Virus record (IMG/VR): IMGVR_UViG_3300047316_000404
Coordinates: 1 to 54,000 of that record
Strand: one strand, 5' to 3'
Origin: a virus
Lineage: Duplodnaviria > Caudoviricetes
DNA length: 54,000 bases
Numbering within the stretch: the stretch's first letter is position 1; every line of letters starts with the position of its first letter. A program made the position numbers and the translations under genes. The notes beneath the pieces are model-generated. The model had not been told where the DNA came from. It made no database searches and saw only the letters and a list, made by a program, of their open reading frames with translations. This document shows, in pieces, positions 3,470 to 26,351 of the stretch.

Positions 3470-4171
3470 ATGGCTAAACTAAAGTACGCTGACTGGCCTG
3501 AAGAACGCAAGGCGCGCCAACGCGAAGCAATCAAGCAATGGAAAATAAAAAATGTAGAACTCGTAAACGAAACCGCTAGAAAAGCCTATGCTAAATGGCG
3601 AGAAACCAACCCTGCGCGCATAAAATTTACGGACGAAGAACTTAAAGCGCGCAAGCGCGAGCAAAATAAAAAATACAAAGAAGCTAACAAAGCGCGCAAC
3701 AAAAAATGGTATTACGCCAATCGCGAACGTGAAAGAGCGCGTAAAAAAGCCTGGCGACTTGCAAATCCTGAAACTTATAAGAAACGCGCTAAAGAAAGGT
3801 CTGCTGAATACAGACTTAGACATCCAGGGCGAGCTAAAGAAGCAACCGCGAAGTACCGCGCGAAACATGCTGAACACGTAAAAAAGTTGATGCATACGCA
3901 CCACATCCAACGTATGTACAAACTAAATGCCACTGACTACGCTGCCATGGTAACAGCGCAAAACAATCGCTGCGCCATATGCAACACAGACAAACCCGGA
4001 AGAAAAAACGGGCATCACTGGTACATAGACCACTGCCACAAGACCAACGCCGTACGGCAGCTTCTGTGCCACCATTGCAACCTTGGTCTTGGGTACTTCA
4101 GAGACAATCCAGCATTTCTACAGCAGGCTGCGGACTATCTGAAGCGTTTCACGCGTGCTTGCGATGCTTGA
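3470..4171 (+). CDS. Endonuclease VII-family homing endonuclease
   Basis: QNNRCAIC...IDHCHKTNAVRQLLCHHCNLGLG; AT-rich and antisense to the surrounding operon. Confidence 0.9.
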   Translation: MAKLKYADWPEERKARQREAIKQWKIKNVELVNETARKAYAKWRETNPARIKFTDEELKARKREQNKKYKEANKARNKKWYYANRERERARKKAWRLANPETYKKRAKERSAEYRLRHPGRAKEATAKYRAKHAEHVKKLMHTHHIQRMYKLNATDYAAMVTAQNNRCAICNTDKPGRKNGHHWYIDHCHKTNAVRQLLCHHCNLGLGYFRDNPAFLQQAADYLKRFTRACDA

Positions 4172-4505
4172 CGATCGCGTCGATGATGTCGCCCTTGTTC
4201 CAATGCTCACTGACTTCGGCACCCTCGCTGGCAGCCACGCTCAGCAGCTCCTCCTTGGTCATGTCGTTGAGCTGCGCCTTGGTCGACCTGGTTTCACCCA
4301 CACCGAATACGCCGCCGGTGGCACCGGTCACGCCCTCGCCGGCGGTGCCGGGCAGCTCGGTGACGGTCAAAACGTCGATCTCGTCGCCCGGAGTAGCGGT
4401 GGCGTTGGCCACGACCTGATGAACGGCATCCTCGCGGTGCAGCGCCTCGATGGTCTCGACGGTGGCGGCGTGGGTAACACGGGATTTGACTTCATAGGAA
4501 GGCAT
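4149..4505 (-). CDS. Hypothetical protein with C-terminal Rho-N/HeH-like motif
   Basis: LNDMTKEELLSVA...NKGDIIDAI. Confidence 0.6.
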   Translation of the reverse strand: MPSYEVKSRVTHAATVETIEALHREDAVHQVVANATATPGDEIDVLTVTELPGTAGEGVTGATGGVFGVGETRSTKAQLNDMTKEELLSVAASEGAEVSEHWNKGDIIDAIVKHRKHA

Positions 4506-4547
4506 CGGACGTACTCCTCTCTGGTTGAACTTTTACCACGGAATTTG

Positions 4548-6863
4548 CTACCCCGGACCACCACCGATTACAGGAGGTGGCGCAGCTGGATTTATCGGCG
4601 CCCTCTGATTCCCCAGTAAATTAACCGACTGAACGGGGGCATGGCTCAATGGCGAGGGCTGGTTTCCTTGCGCCTGGGCGGCCATCTGGGCCATGGAGGC
4701 GCCCGGAGCGCCAGACCCGGGAGCGCCGAGAGGACCCAAAGGCGCGCCACCGGTCAGAGCTGGAAGGATGCCGCGCTGGCCGGCCGGGACACCGGCTTGG
4801 CTCGCCAGCAGGCCGGCGGTTAAGTCGGAGGCGATTTTCTGGACGCCCATTTGCACGCCTTGCTGCACGCCTTGTTCGACCTTCTGGGCGAGGGCCTGCT
4901 GCTCGCCGCCGCCTTGTTGCGCCTGCTGCTGCTTTTCGAGATCGTCGTCGGACGGTACGATTTCGTCACCATCCAATCCGATCGTCTTTGACACGCTTCT
5001 AAGAACCGCGCCGCGGCCTTTAATTCCGATGATATTTTGATCTATCGGATTCGCCGTGCTCTGGAGGAACTCCAACTGTCGTTGCCGTTGCGTTTCTCGC
5101 TGAATTGCTACACCCACTCCCTGGACAAAAATATTTTCTTCACCGCTCAAAAGCCCGGTTGTATCCGACAACAACACCAGATCAAATAGTTGCTGCAATG
5201 CTCCTTCGAATATCTCGCGGTCTACGTTAGAAGCGACGGTCTGGAGAATCTTTGCCGCGTTGTTCATGAGAAGACTCAATCCGGATGCGGTGCGGCCGGC
5301 GCCGCCGGAGGCCTGGCCGCCGATGTATTTCGGGATGGCGGAGACGTCGTCGGACAGATCGAGGAAGGCCTTGAACACGGTCAGCAGGTCCTGCGCGTTC
5401 GACTGTGGCTGGAAGAATTCCACTGGCGGCTTGGCATTGTTGCCGACCGGGTCGGAGGAGGCGTGCCAGCGTTTCCAGGGGTAGAGATCGTCGGTGTTCT
5501 CCTCGGGCCGCACGCGATCGTCGTTGATGACGACCTGCGGGCCTGAGCTGATCGAGAGATTGTTGACCAGGCTGCGCAGCGTTGCGTTGGCAACGTCTTG
5601 TAGATCGGCGATCATGTCGACGAGGCCGTTGCCGACGGGGGTGCCGGGGACTTTCTCGAAGCTGGTCATGTAATAGGAATGTCTTGCTCGCGGCGAGGGG
5701 GAGAGGTTGGCCTTGATGATGTGGCTGCCGATGACGTAGGCGTCGATGTGGTAGTCGCGCAGTTCGTCGGCGACGCCCGGCATGCCGTAGTCTTGCAGGA
5801 GGCGGCCCTGGACGTTGCCGTGGAACTCCATTTGGTTGATGAGGCCGGAGCGGTTCCATGCCGGGTTCTCGCGGCTTTCGAGGACCGAGCGTTCGGCGTC
5901 GGTGGTGTCCCAGTTGTCGTAGAGGCCGCCGCGGCCGTATTCGTCGAGGACGGCACGGACCTCGGCCTGGTCGAAGCCGGGCAGGTCGAGGAGGTCGTTG
6001 AGCTCGGCGCGTGTCAGGCGGGATTTTTCGATGACGTTGGCGTTGGCGATGTCCGCCACGCCCGGCGTAAACCAGATATCGAAGGGGGATATCCGGCTCC
6101 ACACCATCTTCGGGATCTGGCGCACCAGCGGCTGGCCGTTGTTCCACTTGACCTCGGGCATGATCTTGACGGTGGGGCCCTTGATGCAGGCGAACGGGAA
6201 GATGGGGAGATCGACCAGGAATTCCGCCAGGGCCGTATAAAAATGGCCTTCCCTCAAGATCTCATCGATCCTGTCCTCGGCGACCTGGGCCTGGTCGGCG
6301 GCTTTCTTCTTGGCGGCGTCGGAGGCCGACGCCATGAGGGCGGCGCGGCGCATCTGGACGTCCTGCGGGGAAGGGGCCTGACCCATCGTCTGCATGATCA
6401 TCTGCTGCTCGTGGGCCATGAGCGCATCGATCTTCTGGACGATATCGGGCGGGACGTCGGGATCGGCGGGCGGGCGGATCGACCAGGGCCGGTCGGAGCC
6501 GAGATAAATATCGCGCAGGAGGGAGGAGGCGGCGCGGCACTTCTGGGCGGACAGGCGGGCGTAGACTTCCGAGCCGCCAAACTTCTTGACCTCCTGGAAT
6601 TTGGTTGGGGAATACTGGCCGTTGAAGGTGCGCAGAGCCTCGAGCAGGCGATTGGACCAGCCGGCGGCGGTATTGCGGTGATTGCGGAAGATTTCGAACT
6701 GGCCGCGGATGAATCCGGCGAGCTGCGGCGGCGCTGGTTCTGGCGGGGCATTAGCCTGGGCTTTGGCCAATTGTTGCTGCTGGAGATGCGCCTCCAGCGC
6801 GGCCGGAGGAACGACCTGCAGGACGCCTTGCTGGCCGAGTGGGTTGGTTGCCATGCGGGCCAT
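4548..6863 (-). CDS. Portal protein (podovirus/P22-like)
   Basis: 771 aa next to the terminase; RISPFDIW, GNGLVDMIADLQ, RTASGLSLLM motifs and Q-rich C-terminus. Confidence 0.85.
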   Translation of the reverse strand: MARMATNPLGQQGVLQVVPPAALEAHLQQQQLAKAQANAPPEPAPPQLAGFIRGQFEIFRNHRNTAAGWSNRLLEALRTFNGQYSPTKFQEVKKFGGSEVYARLSAQKCRAASSLLRDIYLGSDRPWSIRPPADPDVPPDIVQKIDALMAHEQQMIMQTMGQAPSPQDVQMRRAALMASASDAAKKKAADQAQVAEDRIDEILREGHFYTALAEFLVDLPIFPFACIKGPTVKIMPEVKWNNGQPLVRQIPKMVWSRISPFDIWFTPGVADIANANVIEKSRLTRAELNDLLDLPGFDQAEVRAVLDEYGRGGLYDNWDTTDAERSVLESRENPAWNRSGLINQMEFHGNVQGRLLQDYGMPGVADELRDYHIDAYVIGSHIIKANLSPSPRARHSYYMTSFEKVPGTPVGNGLVDMIADLQDVANATLRSLVNNLSISSGPQVVINDDRVRPEENTDDLYPWKRWHASSDPVGNNAKPPVEFFQPQSNAQDLLTVFKAFLDLSDDVSAIPKYIGGQASGGAGRTASGLSLLMNNAAKILQTVASNVDREIFEGALQQLFDLVLLSDTTGLLSGEENIFVQGVGVAIQRETQRQRQLEFLQSTANPIDQNIIGIKGRGAVLRSVSKTIGLDGDEIVPSDDDLEKQQQAQQGGGEQQALAQKVEQGVQQGVQMGVQKIASDLTAGLLASQAGVPAGQRGILPALTGGAPLGPLGAPGSGAPGASMAQMAAQAQGNQPSPLSHAPVQSVNLLGNQRAPINPAAPPPVIGGGPG

Positions 6864-21318: not shown

Positions 21319-21525
21319 TTATGACGATGCCGTCTGTGCAAGTCCAAAGAAGTCGTTTGGCGTTACGGCACCGTCGGTCACCTCGAAAATTTTCTCCATG
21401 GTGGCTTGATCAGGCATTCGATCACCGGAGCGATATCGGTGCACGGCTTGGCGCGACCGTTCGATCAGCGCGCCGAACTCAGCGTCTGAAAGGTTTCGCT
21501 CGCCCATGAATGCGGAAAGTCGCAT
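21319..21525 (-). CDS. cro: Cro-like repressor
   Basis: Short XRE HTH, AVHRYRSGDRMP...TDGAVTPNDF; divergent from cI. Confidence 0.85.
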   Translation of the reverse strand: MRLSAFMGERNLSDAEFGALIERSRQAVHRYRSGDRMPDQATMEKIFEVTDGAVTPNDFFGLAQTASS

Positions 21526-21536
21526 TCCAGATAATT

Positions 21537-21610
21537 GTCACCATTATGGTGACCCGTCAACCTCTCCGTCACCAAATTGGAGCCTTCACCGCCGTCGCCA
21601 ATACGGTGAC
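21537..21610. promoter_or_regulatory. Three 17-bp operators (OR-like) between cro and cI
   Basis: GTCACCATTATGGTGAC 21537, GTCACCAAATTGGAGCC 21568, GTCGCCAATACGGTGAC 21594; minus-strand TTGACG -35 at 21555-21560. Confidence 0.85.
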
Positions 21611-21619
21611 ATTATAAGG

Positions 21620-22219
21620 ATGGTGCAGATTTACCGAAATGGACTTGCGGCTGCGATGAAGCGGCTCGGCATTGGGCCTACTGCGCTGGCGGCGGAGGTC
21701 GGTACAACAAAGCAAAACATTGACCGATGGGCGCGGGGGGAGCGGAAACTCACCGTGCCTTGGGCCGAAAAGATAGCGCCGGTGCTCCAAACGACTGCGG
21801 GGGAACTGCTGCTTTCCGATGGCGGCGGAATCCAGCGCATTCCTCTACTCGATTGGATACAGGCTGGCAGGCTTACCAACACGAGGAGCCAACTCCCCAT
21901 GGAAGACGTACCGCTTTTGGCCTTTGCAGACTTGGGCCGCGGCGAGTTCTTTGCCTTGAGGGTTCACGGTGCCTCAATGGACCGAGTTTCACCGGACGGA
22001 TCGGTTATCGTCGTGGACAAATCAGACAAGACGCTGCTAGCCGGCAGGTTTTATGTTTTCGCCGTTCGCGGCGCGACGACCTATAAGCGATGGCAGGCCG
22101 GGAAGCCATCGTACCTAGCTGCATTTTCCACCGACCCCGCCGAGGGGCCTATTTTCATCGAAAAGCGCAAGGATTTTGAGGTGGTTGGGCGGGTGCGTCG
22201 GACCATGCTCGACCTATAG
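21620..22219 (+). CDS. cI: CI-like repressor (HTH plus S24 peptidase)
   Basis: N-terminal XRE HTH, IQAG cleavage site, FALRVHGASM (Ser) and TYKR (Lys). Confidence 0.9.
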   Translation: MVQIYRNGLAAAMKRLGIGPTALAAEVGTTKQNIDRWARGERKLTVPWAEKIAPVLQTTAGELLLSDGGGIQRIPLLDWIQAGRLTNTRSQLPMEDVPLLAFADLGRGEFFALRVHGASMDRVSPDGSVIVVDKSDKTLLAGRFYVFAVRGATTYKRWQAGKPSYLAAFSTDPAEGPIFIEKRKDFEVVGRVRRTMLDL

Positions 22220-22243
22220 CCTGGTTGCGGCATAGGAAAAATC

Positions 22244-22297
22244 GTCACCTTTTTGGTGACACGCCTATTGACCAGTCACCAAATTGGTGACAACACT
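22244..22297 (+). promoter_or_regulatory. Two 17-bp operators (OL-like) and a pL-like promoter
   Basis: GTCACCTTTTTGGTGAC 22244-22260 and GTCACCAAATTGGTGAC 22275-22291 flank TTGACC at 22268. Confidence 0.85.
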
Positions 22298-22322
22298 GCT
22301 CCCCACTACAACGGGGAGCCTG

Positions 22323-23282
22323 ATGAAACCGATTGAGCGCGTCGAGATCACCGACACCTACGATTGGTTGGCCGAGCGACAGCGCTACATCGGCGCCAGC
22401 GAAGTCGCCACCGTCTGCGGCGTCGCGGCTTACGGCTCGCTCGCCGAACTCTACGCCGAAAAGAAGGGCCTGCGCCCGCCGATGGTTGATAGCGGCGTGC
22501 TACGCCGCGGCCGCTGGGGAGAATCGGCTGCGTTCCAGGCGCTCGCCGACGAGCGGCCCGAATGGGACGTGCAGCGCGCCCGCGTCCACGTCATCGATCG
22601 CGAGGCGCGGATCGCCTGCACACCGGACGGCTTTGCGACCGCGCCCGATCGGGAAGGCTTCGGCCTCGTCCAGGCCAAGGTCGTGAGCCGCTCGGTCTAT
22701 CGTGCCAAATGGTTGGACGATCCCGAAGGGCCGTTCGACGGGCCGGCGATGCCGCCGGCGCACTTCCGACTGCAGACGGTCTGCGAGCGCATGCTCAACG
22801 CCGACCGCTGCCCGTGGGCCGTGCTCGCGGTGCTGGTAAACGGCGAATACGACTGGTCGTTTCGCCTATTCGACATCGAGCCTGACCCAATCCTCGAGGA
22901 TCGCATCCGCTACGACGTTGCCGCGTTCTGGCGCGACCATCTCGATCCCGGCGTGATGCCCGACTTCGAGCCGCAGCGCGACGAGGCGCTGATCAAGCAA
23001 CTCTTTCCGCAGGACGATGGCAGCGAGATCGATCTGACCACCGACAACCGCGCGCTCGTCGCGGTCGATGAGCTGACCGAGGCGCAGGCGGCCCTTAGTC
23101 GGCTGAAAAAGACCGAGACCGCACTCAAAACCGAACTGACCGCGAAGTTGGGCGCCGCGACCTACGGGCGCCTGGCCGATGGCCGCCGTTTGTCCTGGCG
23201 CCTGCAGCATCGCAAGGGCTACGCGGTTGAACCGGCCGACTTTCGCGTATTCCGAATTCTCAAGCAACAACAGGAGGCATGA
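22323..23282 (+). CDS. YqaJ-like viral recombinase/exonuclease
   Basis: WLAERQRYIGASEVA, LYAEKKG, RGRWGE, ACTPDG; GGGGAG ribosome-binding site. Confidence 0.88.
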   Translation: MKPIERVEITDTYDWLAERQRYIGASEVATVCGVAAYGSLAELYAEKKGLRPPMVDSGVLRRGRWGESAAFQALADERPEWDVQRARVHVIDREARIACTPDGFATAPDREGFGLVQAKVVSRSVYRAKWLDDPEGPFDGPAMPPAHFRLQTVCERMLNADRCPWAVLAVLVNGEYDWSFRLFDIEPDPILEDRIRYDVAAFWRDHLDPGVMPDFEPQRDEALIKQLFPQDDGSEIDLTTDNRALVAVDELTEAQAALSRLKKTETALKTELTAKLGAATYGRLADGRRLSWRLQHRKGYAVEPADFRVFRILKQQQEA

Positions 23283-23292
23283 AATGGTTTCC

Positions 23293-23352
23293 GGCATGGC
23301 ACGGCGCGGCATGGCGAGGCCGGGTGTGGTGAGGCACGGCACGGCGAGGCAG
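23293..23352 (+). repeat. GGY-NN pentamer array A (12 units), putative guide RNA
   Basis: NN = at ac gc at ga cg gt ga ac ac ga ag; ends GGCAGGGA. Confidence 0.9.
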
Positions 23353-23379
23353 GGATTTGTTTGATGGGTTTCCAGTTGC

Positions 23380-23484
23380 GGCGCGGCGGGGCATGGCCCG
23401 GCAAGGCCCGGCTCGGCGTGGCTCGGCGTGGCCGGGCACGGCCCGGCAAGGCGGGGCACGGCACGGCTGGGTAGGGCACGGCAG
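23380..23484 (+). repeat. GGY-NN pentamer array B (21 units), putative guide RNA
   Basis: NN = gc gg at cc aa cc tc gt tc gt cg ac cc aa gg ac ac tg ag ac ag; ends GGCAGGGA. Confidence 0.9.
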
Positions 23485-23507
23485 GGATTTGAACACAGGA
23501 GAGCTTT

Positions 23508-24134
23508 ATGTTGGACAAGCCGAAGTCGAAGAAAATAACCGACGAGCTAATACCATACAGCTCCACAACGATCAAAGCGGCGCGATTGCTGATCGTCGTG
23601 CGGGGGCGCACGCCGCTCTTGACCCACAATCCACAAAGCATGGGCACCGCCCCCGAGGCCGGACGCGGCTCGCGCATCCCGGAAGCCGAGGTCGAGGCCG
23701 AGGCCGGTTGCTACAGGATGGAAGATGGCTCGCTGGCCATCAAGGGCGAGGCATTCCGGGGCTCGATCCTGGGCGCCGCCGGAGCCTGGAAGGTCAAGCG
23801 GGCAACAATGAAATCACGGCTGTCCCACATCGTCGTAATTGAGGATCTGGTGCAGTTGGTCGATTCCAATGACGGCAAGCCGCTCACGTCCTACATCATC
23901 GACTCGCGCCGCGCGATCATCATGGGAAAGGGCATCGTCAGAAGGCGCCCGCGGTTCGACCGCTGGGGCGCGCAGTTCACCGTCGAATACGATCCGGTCT
24001 TGGTCGCCGAGCCAAAATTAATCGTCGATATTTGCGCCGATGCCGGTGGCCGGATTGGTGTTGGTGACTTCAGGCCAGCAAGAAATGGGTGGTTCGGTAG
24101 GTACGATATCGTGTCGTACTTGGTGCTTGAGTGA
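23508..24134 (+). CDS. Cas7/RAMP-like RNA-binding protein associated with the GGY-NN arrays
   Basis: RAMP-like layout: first strand VRGRTPLLTH, IKGEAFRGSI helix, RPRF..W...F strand, C-terminal Gly-rich loop AGGRIGVGDFRP..GWFGRY; AGGAG ribosome-binding site. Confidence 0.75.
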   Translation: MLDKPKSKKITDELIPYSSTTIKAARLLIVVRGRTPLLTHNPQSMGTAPEAGRGSRIPEAEVEAEAGCYRMEDGSLAIKGEAFRGSILGAAGAWKVKRATMKSRLSHIVVIEDLVQLVDSNDGKPLTSYIIDSRRAIIMGKGIVRRRPRFDRWGAQFTVEYDPVLVAEPKLIVDICADAGGRIGVGDFRPARNGWFGRYDIVSYLVLE

Positions 24135-24137
24135 TCT

Positions 24138-24212
24138 GGCGGGGCCAGGCCAGGCAGGGCCGGGCGGGGCGCGGCTAGGTACGGCGGGGCCGGGCGAGGC
24201 GCGGCAAGGCAG
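24138..24212 (+). repeat. GGY-NN pentamer array C (15 units)
   Basis: NN = gg ca ca ag cg gg gc ta ac gg cg ga gc aa ag; ends GGCAGGGA. Confidence 0.9.
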
Positions 24213-24251
24213 GGATTTGTTTGATGATTTTCCTTGATGAGTTTCAGTTCA

Positions 24252-24316
24252 GGCCGGGCAAGGCGGGGTCTGGCTTGGCACGGCGGGGCCCGGCGCGGCT
24301 GGGCGAGGCGAGGCAG
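24252..24316 (+). repeat. GGY-NN pentamer array D (13 units)
   Basis: NN = cg aa gg ct tt ac gg cc gc tg ga ga ag; ends GGCAGGGA. Confidence 0.9.
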
Positions 24317-24346
24317 GGATTATTCGCTTAATCGGAGGAGAATGAG

Positions 24347-25018
24347 ATGGCGAAAGTGGCGATCGACAAAATCAAAATTGATGAATCAATCTATCCGAGA
24401 ACCGGCGTCAATGAGTTTAACGTTGGCCGCTTGGTCTCGGCGCTCAAGACCGGCGTAAAACTGCCGCCGCTTCTAATCGAGGCCAAGACGCATCGACTTG
24501 TCGATGGCCGCCATCGGTTGCAAGCATTTCTGAAGTTAAAGATCGAGCGCATCGACGTTGTTGAAAAGGTGTATGCCAGCGAGGCCGACCTCTACGCCGA
24601 TGCCGTGCGCGCCAACATCGGTCACGGCGAACCGCTCGATCAGTTTTCAATCCGCTCAGCTATCATCCGGCTGGAACAATACGGCTACTCACGCGATCGT
24701 ATTTCAAATGTCGTGCGGCTGCCGGCTGAGATGATCGAAAAGATTGCACGCGGATTTGCAAGCGACGCCGATACCGGTAAGCCGGTCGCACTCAAGGGCG
24801 GGCTCAGTCATTTGGCCGGACAATCCCTGAGCAGCGAACAACAGCAGGTCAACCGGCACTATGGCGGGCCGAAGGCCGTGTTCTATCTGCGCCAACTTTG
24901 CGAAATGATCGAGAAAGATATGTGGCCACGCGACTCCGCGACATTTGTCTTTGAGATGGACCGGCTGGTCGGGTTGTGGTCGGCGATTAAGAGCAGCGGC
25001 AAGAGCGAAGCGGCATAA
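24347..25018 (+). CDS. ParB/Srx N-terminal domain protein
   Basis: IYPR...LPPLLI...LVDGRHRLQA...NIGHG; GGAGG ribosome-binding site. Confidence 0.85.
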   Translation: MAKVAIDKIKIDESIYPRTGVNEFNVGRLVSALKTGVKLPPLLIEAKTHRLVDGRHRLQAFLKLKIERIDVVEKVYASEADLYADAVRANIGHGEPLDQFSIRSAIIRLEQYGYSRDRISNVVRLPAEMIEKIARGFASDADTGKPVALKGGLSHLAGQSLSSEQQQVNRHYGGPKAVFYLRQLCEMIEKDMWPRDSATFVFEMDRLVGLWSAIKSSGKSEAA

Positions 25019-25023
25019 AATTA

Positions 25024-25093
25024 GGCGGGGCAAGGCAGGGCGTGGCGCGGCCAGGCGGGGTCGGGCATGGCACGGCCAGGCAAGGCAAGGCAG
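25024..25093 (+). repeat. GGY-NN pentamer array E (14 units)
   Basis: NN = gg aa ag gt gc ca gg cg at ac ca aa aa ag; ends GGCAGGGA. Confidence 0.9.
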
Positions 25094-25235
25094 GGAGACT
25101 GCGTTCAATGAAAAGCGGTCGCAACGCTACCGATGACTACTCGGGTCCGCTGCAATGCGACCGCCTCGCGCGCCCGGCCTGTTTTCGCCAGTGTTTGGGC
25201 CGGGCGCGCACTCTTAACCCAAAGGAGATTACCCA

Positions 25236-26351
25236 ATGACCAACCCCGACATCGAAGACCGCCGCGGCGCGCTTGCGCAATTCGCCAATGCCGGCGGCCA
25301 GCTCCAGCAGCCCATCCCGTCCGGCCACGGCTTGGTGAGGCCAACCACCGGGCTTGCCGATCGCGTCATCGGCGCGCAGCACGTCGCGGTCTACCGTGAC
25401 GACGCGAAAATATTGCAGAAGCTCTCCGCGCTCGCCGCGGCAGCCGGCACGGACTGGTTTTACCGCTTCCCGGTCAAGTCGAAGGACGGCCGCACCGATT
25501 ACATCGAAGGGCCGAGCATCAAGCTCGCAAACGATGTCGCGCGCATCTTCGGCAACAACGTCAACGAAGTCCGCGAGATCGACAACGGCGACAGTTGGAC
25601 CTTCTACGCGCGCTTCACCGACATCGAGACGGGCTTCTCGATGGAGCGCGCCTACCGGCAGCGCAAGTCGCAGACTTCGATCAAGACCAGGGACGCCGAT
25701 CGCAGTCTCGATCAGACCTACCAAATAGGGCAATCGAAGGCGATCCGAAATTGCATCGTCAACTCGCTTCAGATCTATGCCGACTACGCTTTCGAGCATG
25801 CCCGCAACTCGCTGGTCGATAAGATCGGCAAAGACTTGGCCGGCTACCGCCAGCGCGTCGTCGAGGGCCTCGCGCGCATCCCGGTCGAACTGAACCGCGT
25901 CGAGCGCGTCATCGGCCGTGCCGTCAAGGATTGGCTCGCGCCAGATGTTGCCCAGGTGATCGCGATGATGAAAAGCGTCGCGGACGGCATGGCGTCTGTC
26001 GAAGAAACGTTCCCGCCGATCGAGCAAGTTGCGCAGCCGGCTGCATCGACAGCAAGTGCTACGCCGCCGCCCATGGAGTCAGGACCGGAGGCGGCCGGCG
26101 AGGCGCAGGGCGAGGCCACACCCAATCCACCCCGCCCTGCGCCGACCGCCGATAAGCAATCAGCCGTCGAAGCCGGTGGCCCCGTCGAGGTCGCCTACAA
26201 GCGCGGCGCGGCCTGGCGCACGACTGGCGGGGAGCGCAAAGCCATGCCGCCCGAATACCGTGATCTGAAACATTCGCGCGAGGCGCTCGCATGGGGGGCC
26301 GGTTTTGACGGTAAGCCGATCCCGACATTTTCCGACGAGGGCGAAGCGTGA
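25236..26351 (+). CDS. Phage protein, possible single-strand annealing partner of YqaJ
   Basis: YRFPV...IEGPSIKLA...SKAIRNCI globular domain and a low-complexity tail; function inferred from position. Confidence 0.6.
   Translation: MTNPDIEDRRGALAQFANAGGQLQQPIPSGHGLVRPTTGLADRVIGAQHVAVYRDDAKILQKLSALAAAAGTDWFYRFPVKSKDGRTDYIEGPSIKLANDVARIFGNNVNEVREIDNGDSWTFYARFTDIETGFSMERAYRQRKSQTSIKTRDADRSLDQTYQIGQSKAIRNCIVNSLQIYADYAFEHARNSLVDKIGKDLAGYRQRVVEGLARIPVELNRVERVIGRAVKDWLAPDVAQVIAMMKSVADGMASVEETFPPIEQVAQPAASTASATPPPMESGPEAAGEAQGEATPNPPRPAPTADKQSAVEAGGPVEVAYKRGAAWRTTGGERKAMPPEYRDLKHSREALAWGAGFDGKPIPTFSDEGEA

What the first reader, a model, noticed from the sequence alone, without database searches (positions are those of the whole stretch)
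22323..23352. Array A decodes, skipping every third base, to the start of the phage's own yqaJ gene
Array A NNs (at ac gc at ga cg gt ga ac ac ga) align with codons ATG AAA CCG ATT GAG CGC GTC GAG ATC ACC GAC at 22323-22355. Eight of 11 dinucleotides and 19 of 22 nt are identical, and the skipped base is always the wobble position. A rough uniform-composition estimate gives about 3e-4 such matches by chance per array over both strands of the window. The NNs equal the sense strand, so the RNA would pair with template DNA rather than mRNA. The site lies just downstream of the pL-like promoter. Inference: either autoregulation of this operon, or targeting of a related phage's homologue (about MTAIERVETTD) with three mismatches sparing self. 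Skipping wobble bases would resist synonymous escape.
Basis: partly seen in the sequence, partly recalled or inferred. Interest (0 to 1): 0.95.

Follow-up and report, generated by a model that had tools for sequence, protein, structure and literature searches.

The report
Phage VIPR guide RNA aimed at yqaJ
The repeat array is a guide RNA of a recently described phage system (VIPR) that reads DNA two bases out of every three, and it is aimed at the start of the yqaJ exonuclease gene of sibling phages, with the phage's own copy being a slightly worse match.

Summary
The array A dinucleotides, read with one skipped base, match window 22323-22355 at 19 of 22 positions. The next best site in the window scores 16. 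No NN-order shuffle out of 2000 reached 19, and 2 of 2000 pooled draws did.

This is not a new kind of system. The five GGCNN arrays, the 208-aa gene at 23508-24134 and a ParB-like gene form a VIPR locus, described in three 2026 bioRxiv preprints. Those preprints report the same "1-nt skip" code with the wobble base skipped. The 208-aa protein family matches the solved SUSP1 Vipr protein (PDB 36pp) at E=2.8e-18, and the GGY-binding residues are conserved.

The whole cassette (23265-25111) is missing from sibling phages with 90% identical yqaJ. Some natural yqaJ alleles start MTAIERVEIT instead of the window's MKPIERVEIT. One such allele shares a metagenome run with this phage. It matches the 11 hypervariable guide units at 21 of 22 positions, against 18 of 22 for self.

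The best reading is an anti-sibling silencing guide that partly spares self. Self still scores 0.81-0.86, above the published 0.8 target threshold, so autoregulation remains possible. It is a new member of a known kind.

The parts
21506..22219 (+). CI/LexA-like repressor gene (HTH + Peptidase_S24), upstream of the early operon
   Evidence: Pfam PF00717 E=3.5e-13 and phrog_4 E=5.6e-21
22244..22291 (+). Putative early promoter region. It holds two inverted-repeat operators GTCACC-N5-GGTGAC (22244-22260 and 22275-22291) flanking a -35-like TTGACC (22268-22273).
   Evidence: Read directly. The consensus sigma-70 scan did not call it, so this is an inference.
22320..22358 (+). Near-cognate self target of vrRNA A. 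It comprises the triplet before the ATG plus codons 1-12 of yqaJ. The NNs equal the + (coding) strand, so the RNA would pair with the template strand.
   Evidence: 19/22 (11 units), 20/24, 21/26; in frame with the wobble base skipped
22323..23282 (+). yqaJ / RecE-like recombination exonuclease, first gene of the early operon
   Evidence: PF09588 E=2.5e-7 and phrog_434 E=1.5e-43
23265..25111 (+). VIPR cassette (arrays A-E, vipr, ParB-like vap). It is present here and absent from sibling phages L088-L090, where 21 bp stand in its place.
   Evidence: blastn of window against L088: 22297-23264 matches 3975-4942 and 25112-26329 matches 4964-6157
23290..23355 (+). vrRNA A: 13 YNNGG units (NN = CC AT AC GC AT GA CG GT GA AC AC GA AG) ending in the constant CAGGGA
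   Evidence: The last two NNs are semi-constant across the clade.
23356..23376 (+). Short conserved linker/tail between vrRNA A and B (TTTGTTTGATGGGTTTCCAGT). A similar linker follows array C.
   Evidence: no significant fold (z=0.17)
23377..23487 (+). vrRNA B: 22 YNNGG units. This is longer than the published 9-16. No target was found.
23508..24134 (+). vipr gene: 208-aa RAMP-family protein, homologue of SUSP1 Vipr
   Evidence: PDB 36pp_D 'SUSP1 Vipr protein' E=2.5e-4 for the single sequence and E=2.8e-18 for the family profile. H40, R147, D187 and R189 are invariant. phrog_4652.
24135..24215 (+). vrRNA C: 16 units, no target found
24249..24319 (+). vrRNA D: 14 units. The only lead is a weak partial match (14/16 block, 17/26 overall) to the RBS/start of the yqaJ of relative L091.
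24347..25018 (+). ParB-like gene, the candidate vipr-accessory (vap) gene
   Evidence: phrog_1033 E=2e-10. It lies directly downstream of vipr in 10 of 10 loci that hold both.
25021..25096 (+). vrRNA E: 15 units. It has a partial in-frame match to a 109-aa gene that exists only in the cassette-less siblings.
   Evidence: 18/20 block (0 of 60 shuffles), 20/26-20/28 overall
25236..26351 (+). Next early-operon gene (phrog_3657, unknown function). It follows yqaJ directly in siblings that lack the cassette.

Best explanation
The five GGCNN arrays, the 208-aa gene and the ParB-like gene are a VIPR (Viral Interference Programmable Repeat) cassette inserted in the early recombination operon of a temperate soil phage.

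By analogy with the SUSP1 system, the arrays would be transcribed and cut into vrRNAs. Vipr protomers would bind one GGY per repeat and expose the NN pairs. The filament would then pair those NNs with two of every three bases of one strand of double-stranded DNA, and block transcription there.

vrRNA A is aimed at the first dozen codons of the yqaJ-type exonuclease gene. This is the promoter-proximal first gene of the early operon in sibling phages that compete for the same hosts. Its best natural match is the MTAIERVEIT allele, which co-occurs with this phage in at least one of the four metagenome runs laid.

The phage's own MKPIERVEIT copy is a near-cognate site with mismatches at codons 2, 3 and 9. 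I infer that it is spared or only weakly bound.

Shown here: the match, its statistics, family membership, cassette presence and absence, the alleles and their co-occurrence.
Inferred: expression, processing, binding, repression, and discrimination of self from non-self.
For: (1) The self match is 19/22, 20/24 or 21/26, in frame with the wobble base skipped. Shuffles reaching it: 0/2000, 1/1000 and 0/1000.

(2) System identity. The Vipr family profile hits PDB 36pp 'SUSP1 Vipr protein' at E=2.8e-18 over 21-199 against 4-191. The published GGY-contact residues H17, R138, D177, W178 and R179 align with window H40, R147, D187, F188 and R189. Four of these are invariant in 25 homologues. The arrays fit the GGY/NN definition and flank vipr.

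(3) Published rule. A 1-nt skip, wobble alignment, either strand, no PAM, repression at promoter-proximal sites, and targets in competing phages.

(4) Alleles. Of the 15 listed members (of 26) of the 90% yqaJ cluster, 5 start MTAIERVEITPS and 7 start MKPIERVEIT. Scoring the 120 homologues at protein level, best case, ranks the MTA alleles first: 21/24 and 20/24.

(5) Co-occurrence. In run X12, contigs identical to the window (22200-22432 and 23240-25169, 0 differences) sit beside a deeper contig. That contig reads CCC ATG ACC G before window place 22330. It matches the 11 hypervariable units at 21/22, against 18/22 for self.

(6) The last two NNs (GA, AG) are semi-constant in the clade. Position -1 is AG in 128/167 arrays and position -2 is AA or GA in 112/167. 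Entropies are 1.2 and 2.5 bits, against 3.6-3.9 bits further in.

(7) Siblings L088-L090 lack the cassette but keep the target gene.

(8) The rule works in this clade. Among 290 unique arrays scanned against 1.9 Mb of loci, 15 arrays (39 hits) reach 18/20, against 3 arrays (6 hits) after shuffling.

(9) The published pattern is that self-match scores are lower than non-self scores.
Against: Counted over all 13 units, self (21/26 = 0.81) and the X12 allele (22/26 = 0.85) differ little.

The SUSP1 filament assembles on DNA from the 3' end of the vrRNA. In the 3' units self matches better (units 8-13: 10/12) than the MTA...PT or MTA...PS alleles (8-9/12).

No perfect target exists in IMG/VR contigs or in 185,579 species genomes. 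No MTA-allele DNA was found in IMG/VR.

The X12 allele is read from a contig table that lists 26 of its 29 differences, so up to 3 are unseen.

The TA/KP difference coincides with a break in upstream homology. It may therefore be a mosaic junction rather than selected escape.

Arrays B, C and D have no identified target.
Confidence: 0.6

Rival explanations
1. Autoregulation. vrRNA A with Vipr binds the phage's own yqaJ start and throttles or times its own early operon. Because that operon also carries vipr and the arrays, the result would be a negative feedback loop.
For: Self identity is 0.81-0.86, above the 0.8 level that both target-prediction papers use to call natural targets. The site lies just downstream of the operator/-35 region, at the first gene of the operon that contains the cassette. 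Self matches best in the 3' units, where SUSP1 filament assembly on DNA begins (counts).
Against: Published surveys found no self hit at or above 0.8, and found self scores consistently below non-self scores. In 236 arrays of 86 loci of this clade, no other array reaches even 18/22 on its own locus, and the mean best score (15.08) equals the shuffle mean (14.96). Self-targeting is therefore not a habit of the family. A co-occurring non-self allele fits the hypervariable units better, 21/22 against 18/22. The yqaJ start has the same sequence in siblings without the cassette, so it did not co-evolve with the guide.
Confidence: 0.22
2. Inherited, now idle guide. The cassette arrived by recombination from a donor phage whose guide A was aimed at this yqaJ lineage. 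The self match is then an accident of homology with no present function, either because it is not bound or because the RNA is not made.
For: The cassette is a clean 1.85-kb insertion relative to siblings. VIPR cassettes sit downstream of yqaJ-type genes in several other loci (L008, L029, L055, L077, L083), so exchange between such operons is plausible. No perfect target is known.
Against: All arrays keep intact GGY scaffolds. vipr is an intact ORF with invariant RNA-binding residues. A 21/22 target co-occurs with the phage in nature.
Confidence: 0.12
3. Chance resemblance, or the arrays are something other than guide RNAs (small repeat-peptide genes or DNA protein-binding repeats).
For: ORFs run through the arrays (for example MVSGMARRGMARPG...). 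Arrays B-D have no target.
Against: Shuffle controls give 0/2000. The hit is in frame, at the start codon of the adjacent gene. An independent natural allele of the same gene scores 21/22. GGC is kept in all three codon phases, which points to a nucleotide-level constraint rather than a peptide one. The adjacent protein is a Vipr homologue.
Confidence: 0.02

Closest known systems
Type II VIPR of Escherichia phage SUSP1 (Vipr + vrRNAs + vap1); bioRxiv 10.64898/2026.04.26.720920 and 10.64898/2026.04.26.720927; PDB 36pp
   Same: It has a small Vipr RAMP protein of about 200 aa with the same GGY-contact residues. It has tandem GGY/NN vrRNAs in the intergenic regions on both sides of vipr and one accessory gene after vipr. 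It uses the 1-nt skip code with the wobble base skipped, and the target lies in another mobile element's coding sequence.
   Different: The window's system sits in a temperate soil phage of about 60% GC, inside the early recombination operon. The accessory gene is ParB-like. The tail or linker is only about 27 nt with no significant fold, in place of the ~40-nt pseudoknot tail. One array has 22 units. One guide has a site at or above 0.8 identity on its own genome, which the papers report they did not see. Which of the seven published types it belongs to could not be checked, because the supplements are closed.
Pseudomonas fulva prophage VIPR clade (same preprints)
   Same: It is prophage-borne, and its vrRNAs are aimed at other resident prophages, often at early or regulatory genes.
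   Different: Those guides concentrate on lysis-lysogeny regulators. Here the identified target is the 5' end of the first early-operon gene (yqaJ exonuclease) of sibling phages. No self hit at or above 0.8 was found in that clade.
Solo vrRNAs and vrRNA-against-VIPR conflicts in SUSP1-family phages and F5 satellites; bioRxiv 10.64898/2026.10.15.759431
   Same: Guides are directed at close relatives, target sites lie in early codons of a gene, and self scores are lower than non-self scores.
   Different: Those targets are vipr, vrRNA loci, a satellite recombinase and host REP decoys in Enterobacteriaceae. Here the target is a recombination exonuclease gene, and self is only marginally worse than non-self when all units are counted.
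Class 1 CRISPR-Cas effector (Cas7 backbone on crRNA) and dCas9 CRISPRi
   Same: A RAMP filament on a guide RNA with periodically flipped bases, and repression by blocking transcription (paper text).
   Different: There are no CRISPR repeats or spacers, no cas1/cas2 and no PAM. The guide information is non-contiguous (2 of 5 RNA bases, 2 of 3 DNA bases). This locus is not a member of that family.

Membership tests
VIPR system | Vipr protein: homologue of the SUSP1/P. fulva Vipr RAMP (about 20 kDa) | tested here: met
   Window 23508-24134 (208 aa) hits PDB 36pp_D 'SUSP1 Vipr protein' at E=2.5e-4. A profile of 25 family members gives E=2.8e-18, covering 21-199 against 4-191.
VIPR system | Residues that hold the GGY motif (SUSP1 H17, R138, D177, W178, R179: RRM sheet, thumb, G-loop) | tested here: met
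   In one search they align with window H40, R147, D187, F188 (aromatic) and R189. H40, R147, D187 and R189 are invariant in alignment A1. The residue roles come from the text read.
VIPR system | RAMP three-dimensional fold (RRM core, G-loop, thumb, alpha-bundle) | not testable with these tools
Only sequence-profile evidence is available.
VIPR system | vrRNA genes: tandem YNNGG / GGY-NN repeats (at least 4, typically 9-16) in intergenic DNA flanking vipr, with a conserved GGY and hypervariable NN | tested here: met
   There are five arrays of 13-22 units, all on the + strand and intergenic. The (GGCNN)x4 pattern gives 64 matches against 1.9 expected, and 62 of the 64 lie inside the arrays. Across 167 arrays of the clade, NN entropy is 3.6-3.9 bits at internal positions. 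Array B (22 units) exceeds the usual range.
VIPR system | Invariant structured 3' tail (a pseudoknot in the SUSP1 clade) | tested here: inconclusive
   The constant 3' end is CAGGGA plus a ~27-nt linker conserved between arrays and related loci. Five tails fold no better than shuffles (z = 0.17, -0.35, 2.13, 0.06, -1.2). Pseudoknots were not modelled.
VIPR system | Accessory vap gene next to vipr with a predicted DNA-interacting function | tested here: met
   A ParB-like gene (phrog_1033, E=2e-10) lies directly downstream of vipr in 10 of 10 loci that hold both. Whether it equals one of the published vap1-6 could not be checked (supplements closed; 'ParB' occurs 0 times in the main text).
VIPR system | Guides match natural targets by the 1-nt skip rule at 80% or more of NN positions, mostly in coding DNA with the skip at the wobble position | tested here: met
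   Array A scores 0.81-0.86 on its own yqaJ. On the co-occurring MTA allele it scores 0.85 over all units and 0.95 over the hypervariable units. Both hits are in frame. Clade-wide enrichment is 15 arrays against 3 after shuffling. No target at or above 0.8 was found for B-E.
VIPR system | vrRNAs are expressed, co-purify with Vipr, and the complex binds or represses the gapped target | not testable with these tools
   This needs sRNA-seq, pull-down, EMSA or a reporter assay.
CRISPR-Cas (class 1) | CRISPR array of direct repeats with contiguous spacers, plus cas genes | tested here: not met
   The tandem-repeat and repeat-pattern scans show only 5-nt-period arrays. There are no cas-family hits among the five flanking proteins.

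The most novel reading that the evidence does not exclude
vrRNA A is a genuine self-targeting guide. Its Vipr filament binds the phage's own yqaJ start at 0.81-0.86 identity, with the best match in the 3' units where filament assembly starts. It would act as a built-in negative-feedback brake or timer on the early operon that encodes it. This would be a regulatory use of VIPR by a phage on itself, in addition to attacking siblings. The published surveys looked for self hits and did not find any.
Probability: 0.2. Interest if true: 0.7.

Novelty: new member of a known kind. Interest (0 to 1): 0.4.

Why it matters
The code itself is therefore not new.

The locus is still useful as a natural test case. 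One guide sits beside a graded series of real targets:
- its own gene, at 0.81-0.86 identity;
- siblings, at 0.69-0.75;
- co-occurring alleles, at 0.85-0.95.

The published work has not described how many mismatches a Vipr filament tolerates, or at which positions, and so how a phage avoids silencing itself. The two papers searched for the word held nothing on guide-target mismatch tolerance. This locus makes that question directly testable with ordinary reporter assays.

The locus also extends VIPR to a soil temperate phage with a ParB-like accessory gene and a short, apparently unstructured tail.

Tried and rejected
Other decodings. Skips of 0, 2 and 3 bases give nothing above 15-16/22.

Self-targeting as a family habit. 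In 236 arrays of 86 loci, only window A stands out. I rejected this idea.

yqaJ starts as a general VIPR target. I scanned 290 arrays against 12 yqaJ start regions. Only window A (15/16) and window D (14/16) exceed the shuffle maximum of 13. It is not general.

Perfect target search. It also gave 0 at up to 3 mismatches in five sibling records.

Back-translated MTAIERVEIT gave 0 hits. A shorter MTAIERV[DE] pattern gave 5 hits, all one unrelated low-GC phage family hitting inside a long ORF of unrelated sequence (not annotated here), which I take as chance.

An array E block pattern gave 0 hits.

DNA of the MTA allele was not in IMG/VR or the metagenome contig collection.

Targets of arrays B, C and D were not found in the window or in siblings G002, G004 and G005. 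None exceeded shuffles.

Rfam gave only one sub-threshold chance match.

Tail folding gave no significant structure.

The consensus promoter scan called neither the presumed early promoter nor any promoter inside the cassette.

Small ORFs through the arrays were rejected as coding, because GGC is conserved in all three phases.

Joints between arrays in the laid contigs (table 5) have sides under 31 letters or lie between repeats. I did not use them as evidence.

I did not see the supplements of the three preprints. The type assignment, target tables and self-target tables there may bear on the claims about vap identity and about self-targeting being unreported.

I searched for prior descriptions.
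Full report
OBSERVATION

The region 23293-25096 holds five arrays of GGCNN pentamers, all on the + strand and all intergenic. A (GGCNN)x4 pattern with at most one mismatch matches 64 times against 1.9 expected, and 62 of the 64 matches lie in these arrays.

Array A reads AT AC GC AT GA CG GT GA AC AC GA AG. With one skipped base between dinucleotides, the first 11 units match 22323-22355 at 19/22. That site is the ATG and first codons of the yqaJ ORF, in frame, so every skipped base is a wobble position. The next best site in the window scores 16. Skips of 0, 2 or 3 bases give at most 15-16, apart from the array itself.

Controls:
- 0 of 2000 NN-order shuffles reach 19.
- 2 of 2000 pooled NN draws reach 19.
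- Parsed as YNNGG, each array has one further 5' unit (T-NN-GG). Array A then scores 21/26 (0 of 1000 shuffles), or 20/24 without the constant AG (1 of 1000).
- Arrays B-E have no such site in the window; their best is 0.57-0.67, which is shuffle level.

WHAT IT IS

[quoted passage not shown] I read the Results, Discussion and Methods sections 18, 20, 26 and 27.

The paper describes VIPR systems. These are phage-encoded and consist of a ~20-kDa ancestral RAMP protein (Vipr), an accessory gene (vap) and vrRNAs. The vrRNAs are made of 9-16 YNNGG repeats plus a 3' tail. The NN dinucleotides recognise double-stranded DNA by a "1 nt skip rule": the skipped base usually falls on the codon wobble position, either strand can be targeted, and there is no PAM. 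The outcome is CRISPRi-like repression, and natural targets lie in competing phages and satellites.

Two companion preprints add detail:
- 10.64898/2026.04.26.720927 (Results read). It gives the filament structure and the residues that hold GGY. It also shows that the filament assembles on DNA from the 3' end of the vrRNA toward the 5' end.
- 10.64898/2026.10.15.759431 (sections 8 and 17 and passages read). It uses an identity threshold of 0.8 and reports that guides score lower on self than on rivals.

MEMBERSHIP

The 208-aa ORF at 23508-24134 has no Pfam family. It hits the PDB chain 36pp_D, "SUSP1 Vipr protein", at E=2.5e-4 on its own. As a profile of 25 homologues it hits at E=2.8e-18 over nearly the full length.

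The published GGY-binding residues H17, R138, D177, W178 and R179 align with H40, R147, D187, F188 and R189. Four of these five are invariant in the family alignment.

A ParB-like gene (phrog_1033) follows vipr directly in 10 of 10 loci that hold both.

The fold itself could not be predicted because the tool was off. The tails are short and fold no better than shuffles. Rfam has no family for them.

THE TARGET

Sibling phages L088-L090 have yqaJ 90% identical at the protein level. They carry the same MKPIERVEIT start but lack the entire cassette. Window 23265-25111 replaces 21 bp of the sibling sequence. The target sequence therefore does not depend on the guide.

Among 120 listed yqaJ homologues, I scored N-termini against the array A code at protein level, best case. 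The closest relatives rank first: P0001 (MTAIERVEITPS) at 21/24, P0013 at 20/24, and the window at 20/24.

In the 90% cluster, of the 15 listed members (of 26):
- 5 start MTA;
- 7 start MKP;
- 1 has a different start;
- 2 are fragments.

Two protein pairs on different backbones differ only at residues 2-3, TA against KP. The guide's mismatches to self at units AC and GC are exactly these two codons.

I laid Logan contigs of four soil and rhizosphere runs on 22200-25300. Run X12 holds contigs identical to the window, covering 22200-22432 and 23240-25169 with 0 differences. It also holds a deeper contig (depth 46) that aligns from 22330 and reads ...CCC ATG ACC G before it. That is the MTA allele at DNA level, continuing ...ATC ACG CCT ACC. 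None of its 26 listed differences (of 29) lies in 22332-22351. A run X15 contig shows ACG CCT AGC (TPS).

WHICH UNITS COUNT

I examined 167 unique arrays from loci L001-L087:
- The last NN is AG in 128. This count is partly biased by my search pattern.
- The penultimate NN is AA or GA in 112 (2.5 bits).
- Positions further in carry 3.6-3.9 bits.

Array A ends GA AG, so these two units look like part of the handle.

Match counts for the X12 allele and for self:
- Over the 11 hypervariable units (CC AT AC GC AT GA CG GT GA AC AC): X12 allele 21/22, self 18/22.
- Over all 13 units: X12 allele 22/26, self 21/26.
- In the 3' units 8-13, where SUSP1 assembly starts: self 10/12, MTA alleles 8-9/12.

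So the direction of discrimination depends on rules that the papers I read do not give. The words "mismatch" and "seed" occur 0 times in the structural paper.

CLADE-WIDE CHECKS

A pattern scan of IMG/VR found 87 stretches with such arrays.
- Self-targeting is not general. Of 236 arrays with at least 11 units, only window A reaches 18/22 or more on its own locus. The mean best score is 15.08 against 14.96 for shuffles.
- The skip rule is informative in this clade. Against 1.9 Mb of loci, 15 of 290 unique arrays (39 hits) reach 18/20, compared with 3 arrays (6 hits) after shuffling.
- Array E has an 18/20 block (0 of 60 shuffles; 20/26-20/28 overall). It is in frame in a 109-aa gene that exists only in the cassette-less siblings.
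- Array D has a 14/16 block on the RBS and start of L091's yqaJ, but only 17/26 overall.
- No perfect target of A exists in IMG/VR or the species genomes.

MECHANISM AND VERDICT

The most likely reading (0.6) is that vrRNA A is an anti-sibling guide. It would silence the early operon of competing phages at its first gene, and the phage's own copy would be a near-cognate site that is spared or weakly bound.

Autoregulation of its own operon (0.22) stays open, because self is above the published 0.8 threshold and is well matched at the 3' end. An idle inherited guide (0.12) and chance or a non-guide function (0.02) are less likely.

Expression, processing and binding are all inferred from the SUSP1 and P. 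fulva work. Nothing here shows them for this phage.

The system is known, so this locus is a new member of a known kind. Its added value is a natural mismatch series, together with a self site at or above 0.8 that the published surveys say they did not encounter.

LIMITS

- The supplements of the preprints were not seen.
- Collection scans accept only exact patterns.
- The contigs laid cannot show rare variants or RNA ends.

Noticed in passing
window 25021-25096; L088 6392-6433 (gene 6173-6502): Array E has an in-frame 18/20 block (20/28 overall) in a 109-aa gene of unknown function. That gene is present in the cassette-less siblings L088-L090 and absent from the window, where 21 bp stand in its place. 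This is a possible second anti-sibling guide, but it is below the 0.8 threshold.
   Followed up: partly
window 24249-24319; L091 about 539-577: Array D units 5-12 match 14/16 across the RBS and start codon of the yqaJ gene of relative L091. The overall match is only 17/26.
   Followed up: partly
window 23377-23487: Array B has 22 YNNGG units, beyond the 9-16 reported for vrRNAs. It may be two fused guides or one long guide. No target was found.
   Followed up: no
all five arrays; loci L001-L087: Every window array is preceded by T-NN, giving an extra 5' YNNGG unit. Across 167 arrays of the clade the last NN is mostly AG and the penultimate NN is mostly AA or GA. The 3' two units therefore look like handle rather than guide.
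   Followed up: yes
proteins P0123/P0124 and P0013/P0135 (yqaJ homologues): Two pairs of otherwise identical yqaJ proteins differ only at residues 2-3 (TA versus KP), which are the codons where guide A mismatches self. This could be escape from targeting. It could also be a mosaic junction, since upstream homology also breaks there in the laid contig.
   Followed up: partly
L036 3552 (14 units) against L014 about 6785 and L031 about 6809: An array in one viral contig matches sites in two other contigs at 20/20 in all five 10-unit blocks. This is a near-perfect inter-phage target pair in the same clade.
   Followed up: no
L008, L029, L055, L077, L083: VIPR cassettes with a ParB-like gene recur downstream of yqaJ-type exonuclease genes (30-64% identical to the window's) in other viral contigs. 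This suggests a preferred home in early recombination operons.
   Followed up: partly
phage records, e.g. Mycobacterium phage BobaPhett 38222-38824: tblastn of the window's Vipr finds 150 phage records (76 Escherichia, 27 Mycobacterium, 17 Salmonella, Gordonia and others). In the 30 rows listed, 29 are annotated hypothetical protein and one as an HTH transcriptional regulator.
   Followed up: no
window 23284-23364 and 23357-23842 (+): ORFs with good-looking starts run through the arrays and give five-residue periodic peptides (MVSGMARRGMARPG...). GGC is kept in all three codon phases, so these are by-products of the repeat and not genes.
   Followed up: yes
window 22244-22319: Two 17-bp inverted-repeat operators (GTCACC-N5-GGTGAC) bracket a TTGACC hexamer. 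A hairpin that includes the RBS (22298-22319) lies just before the yqaJ ATG. Siblings L088-L090 have different operators (TTACC...GGTAA) but the same hairpin and start, so they are presumably heteroimmune relatives.
   Followed up: partly
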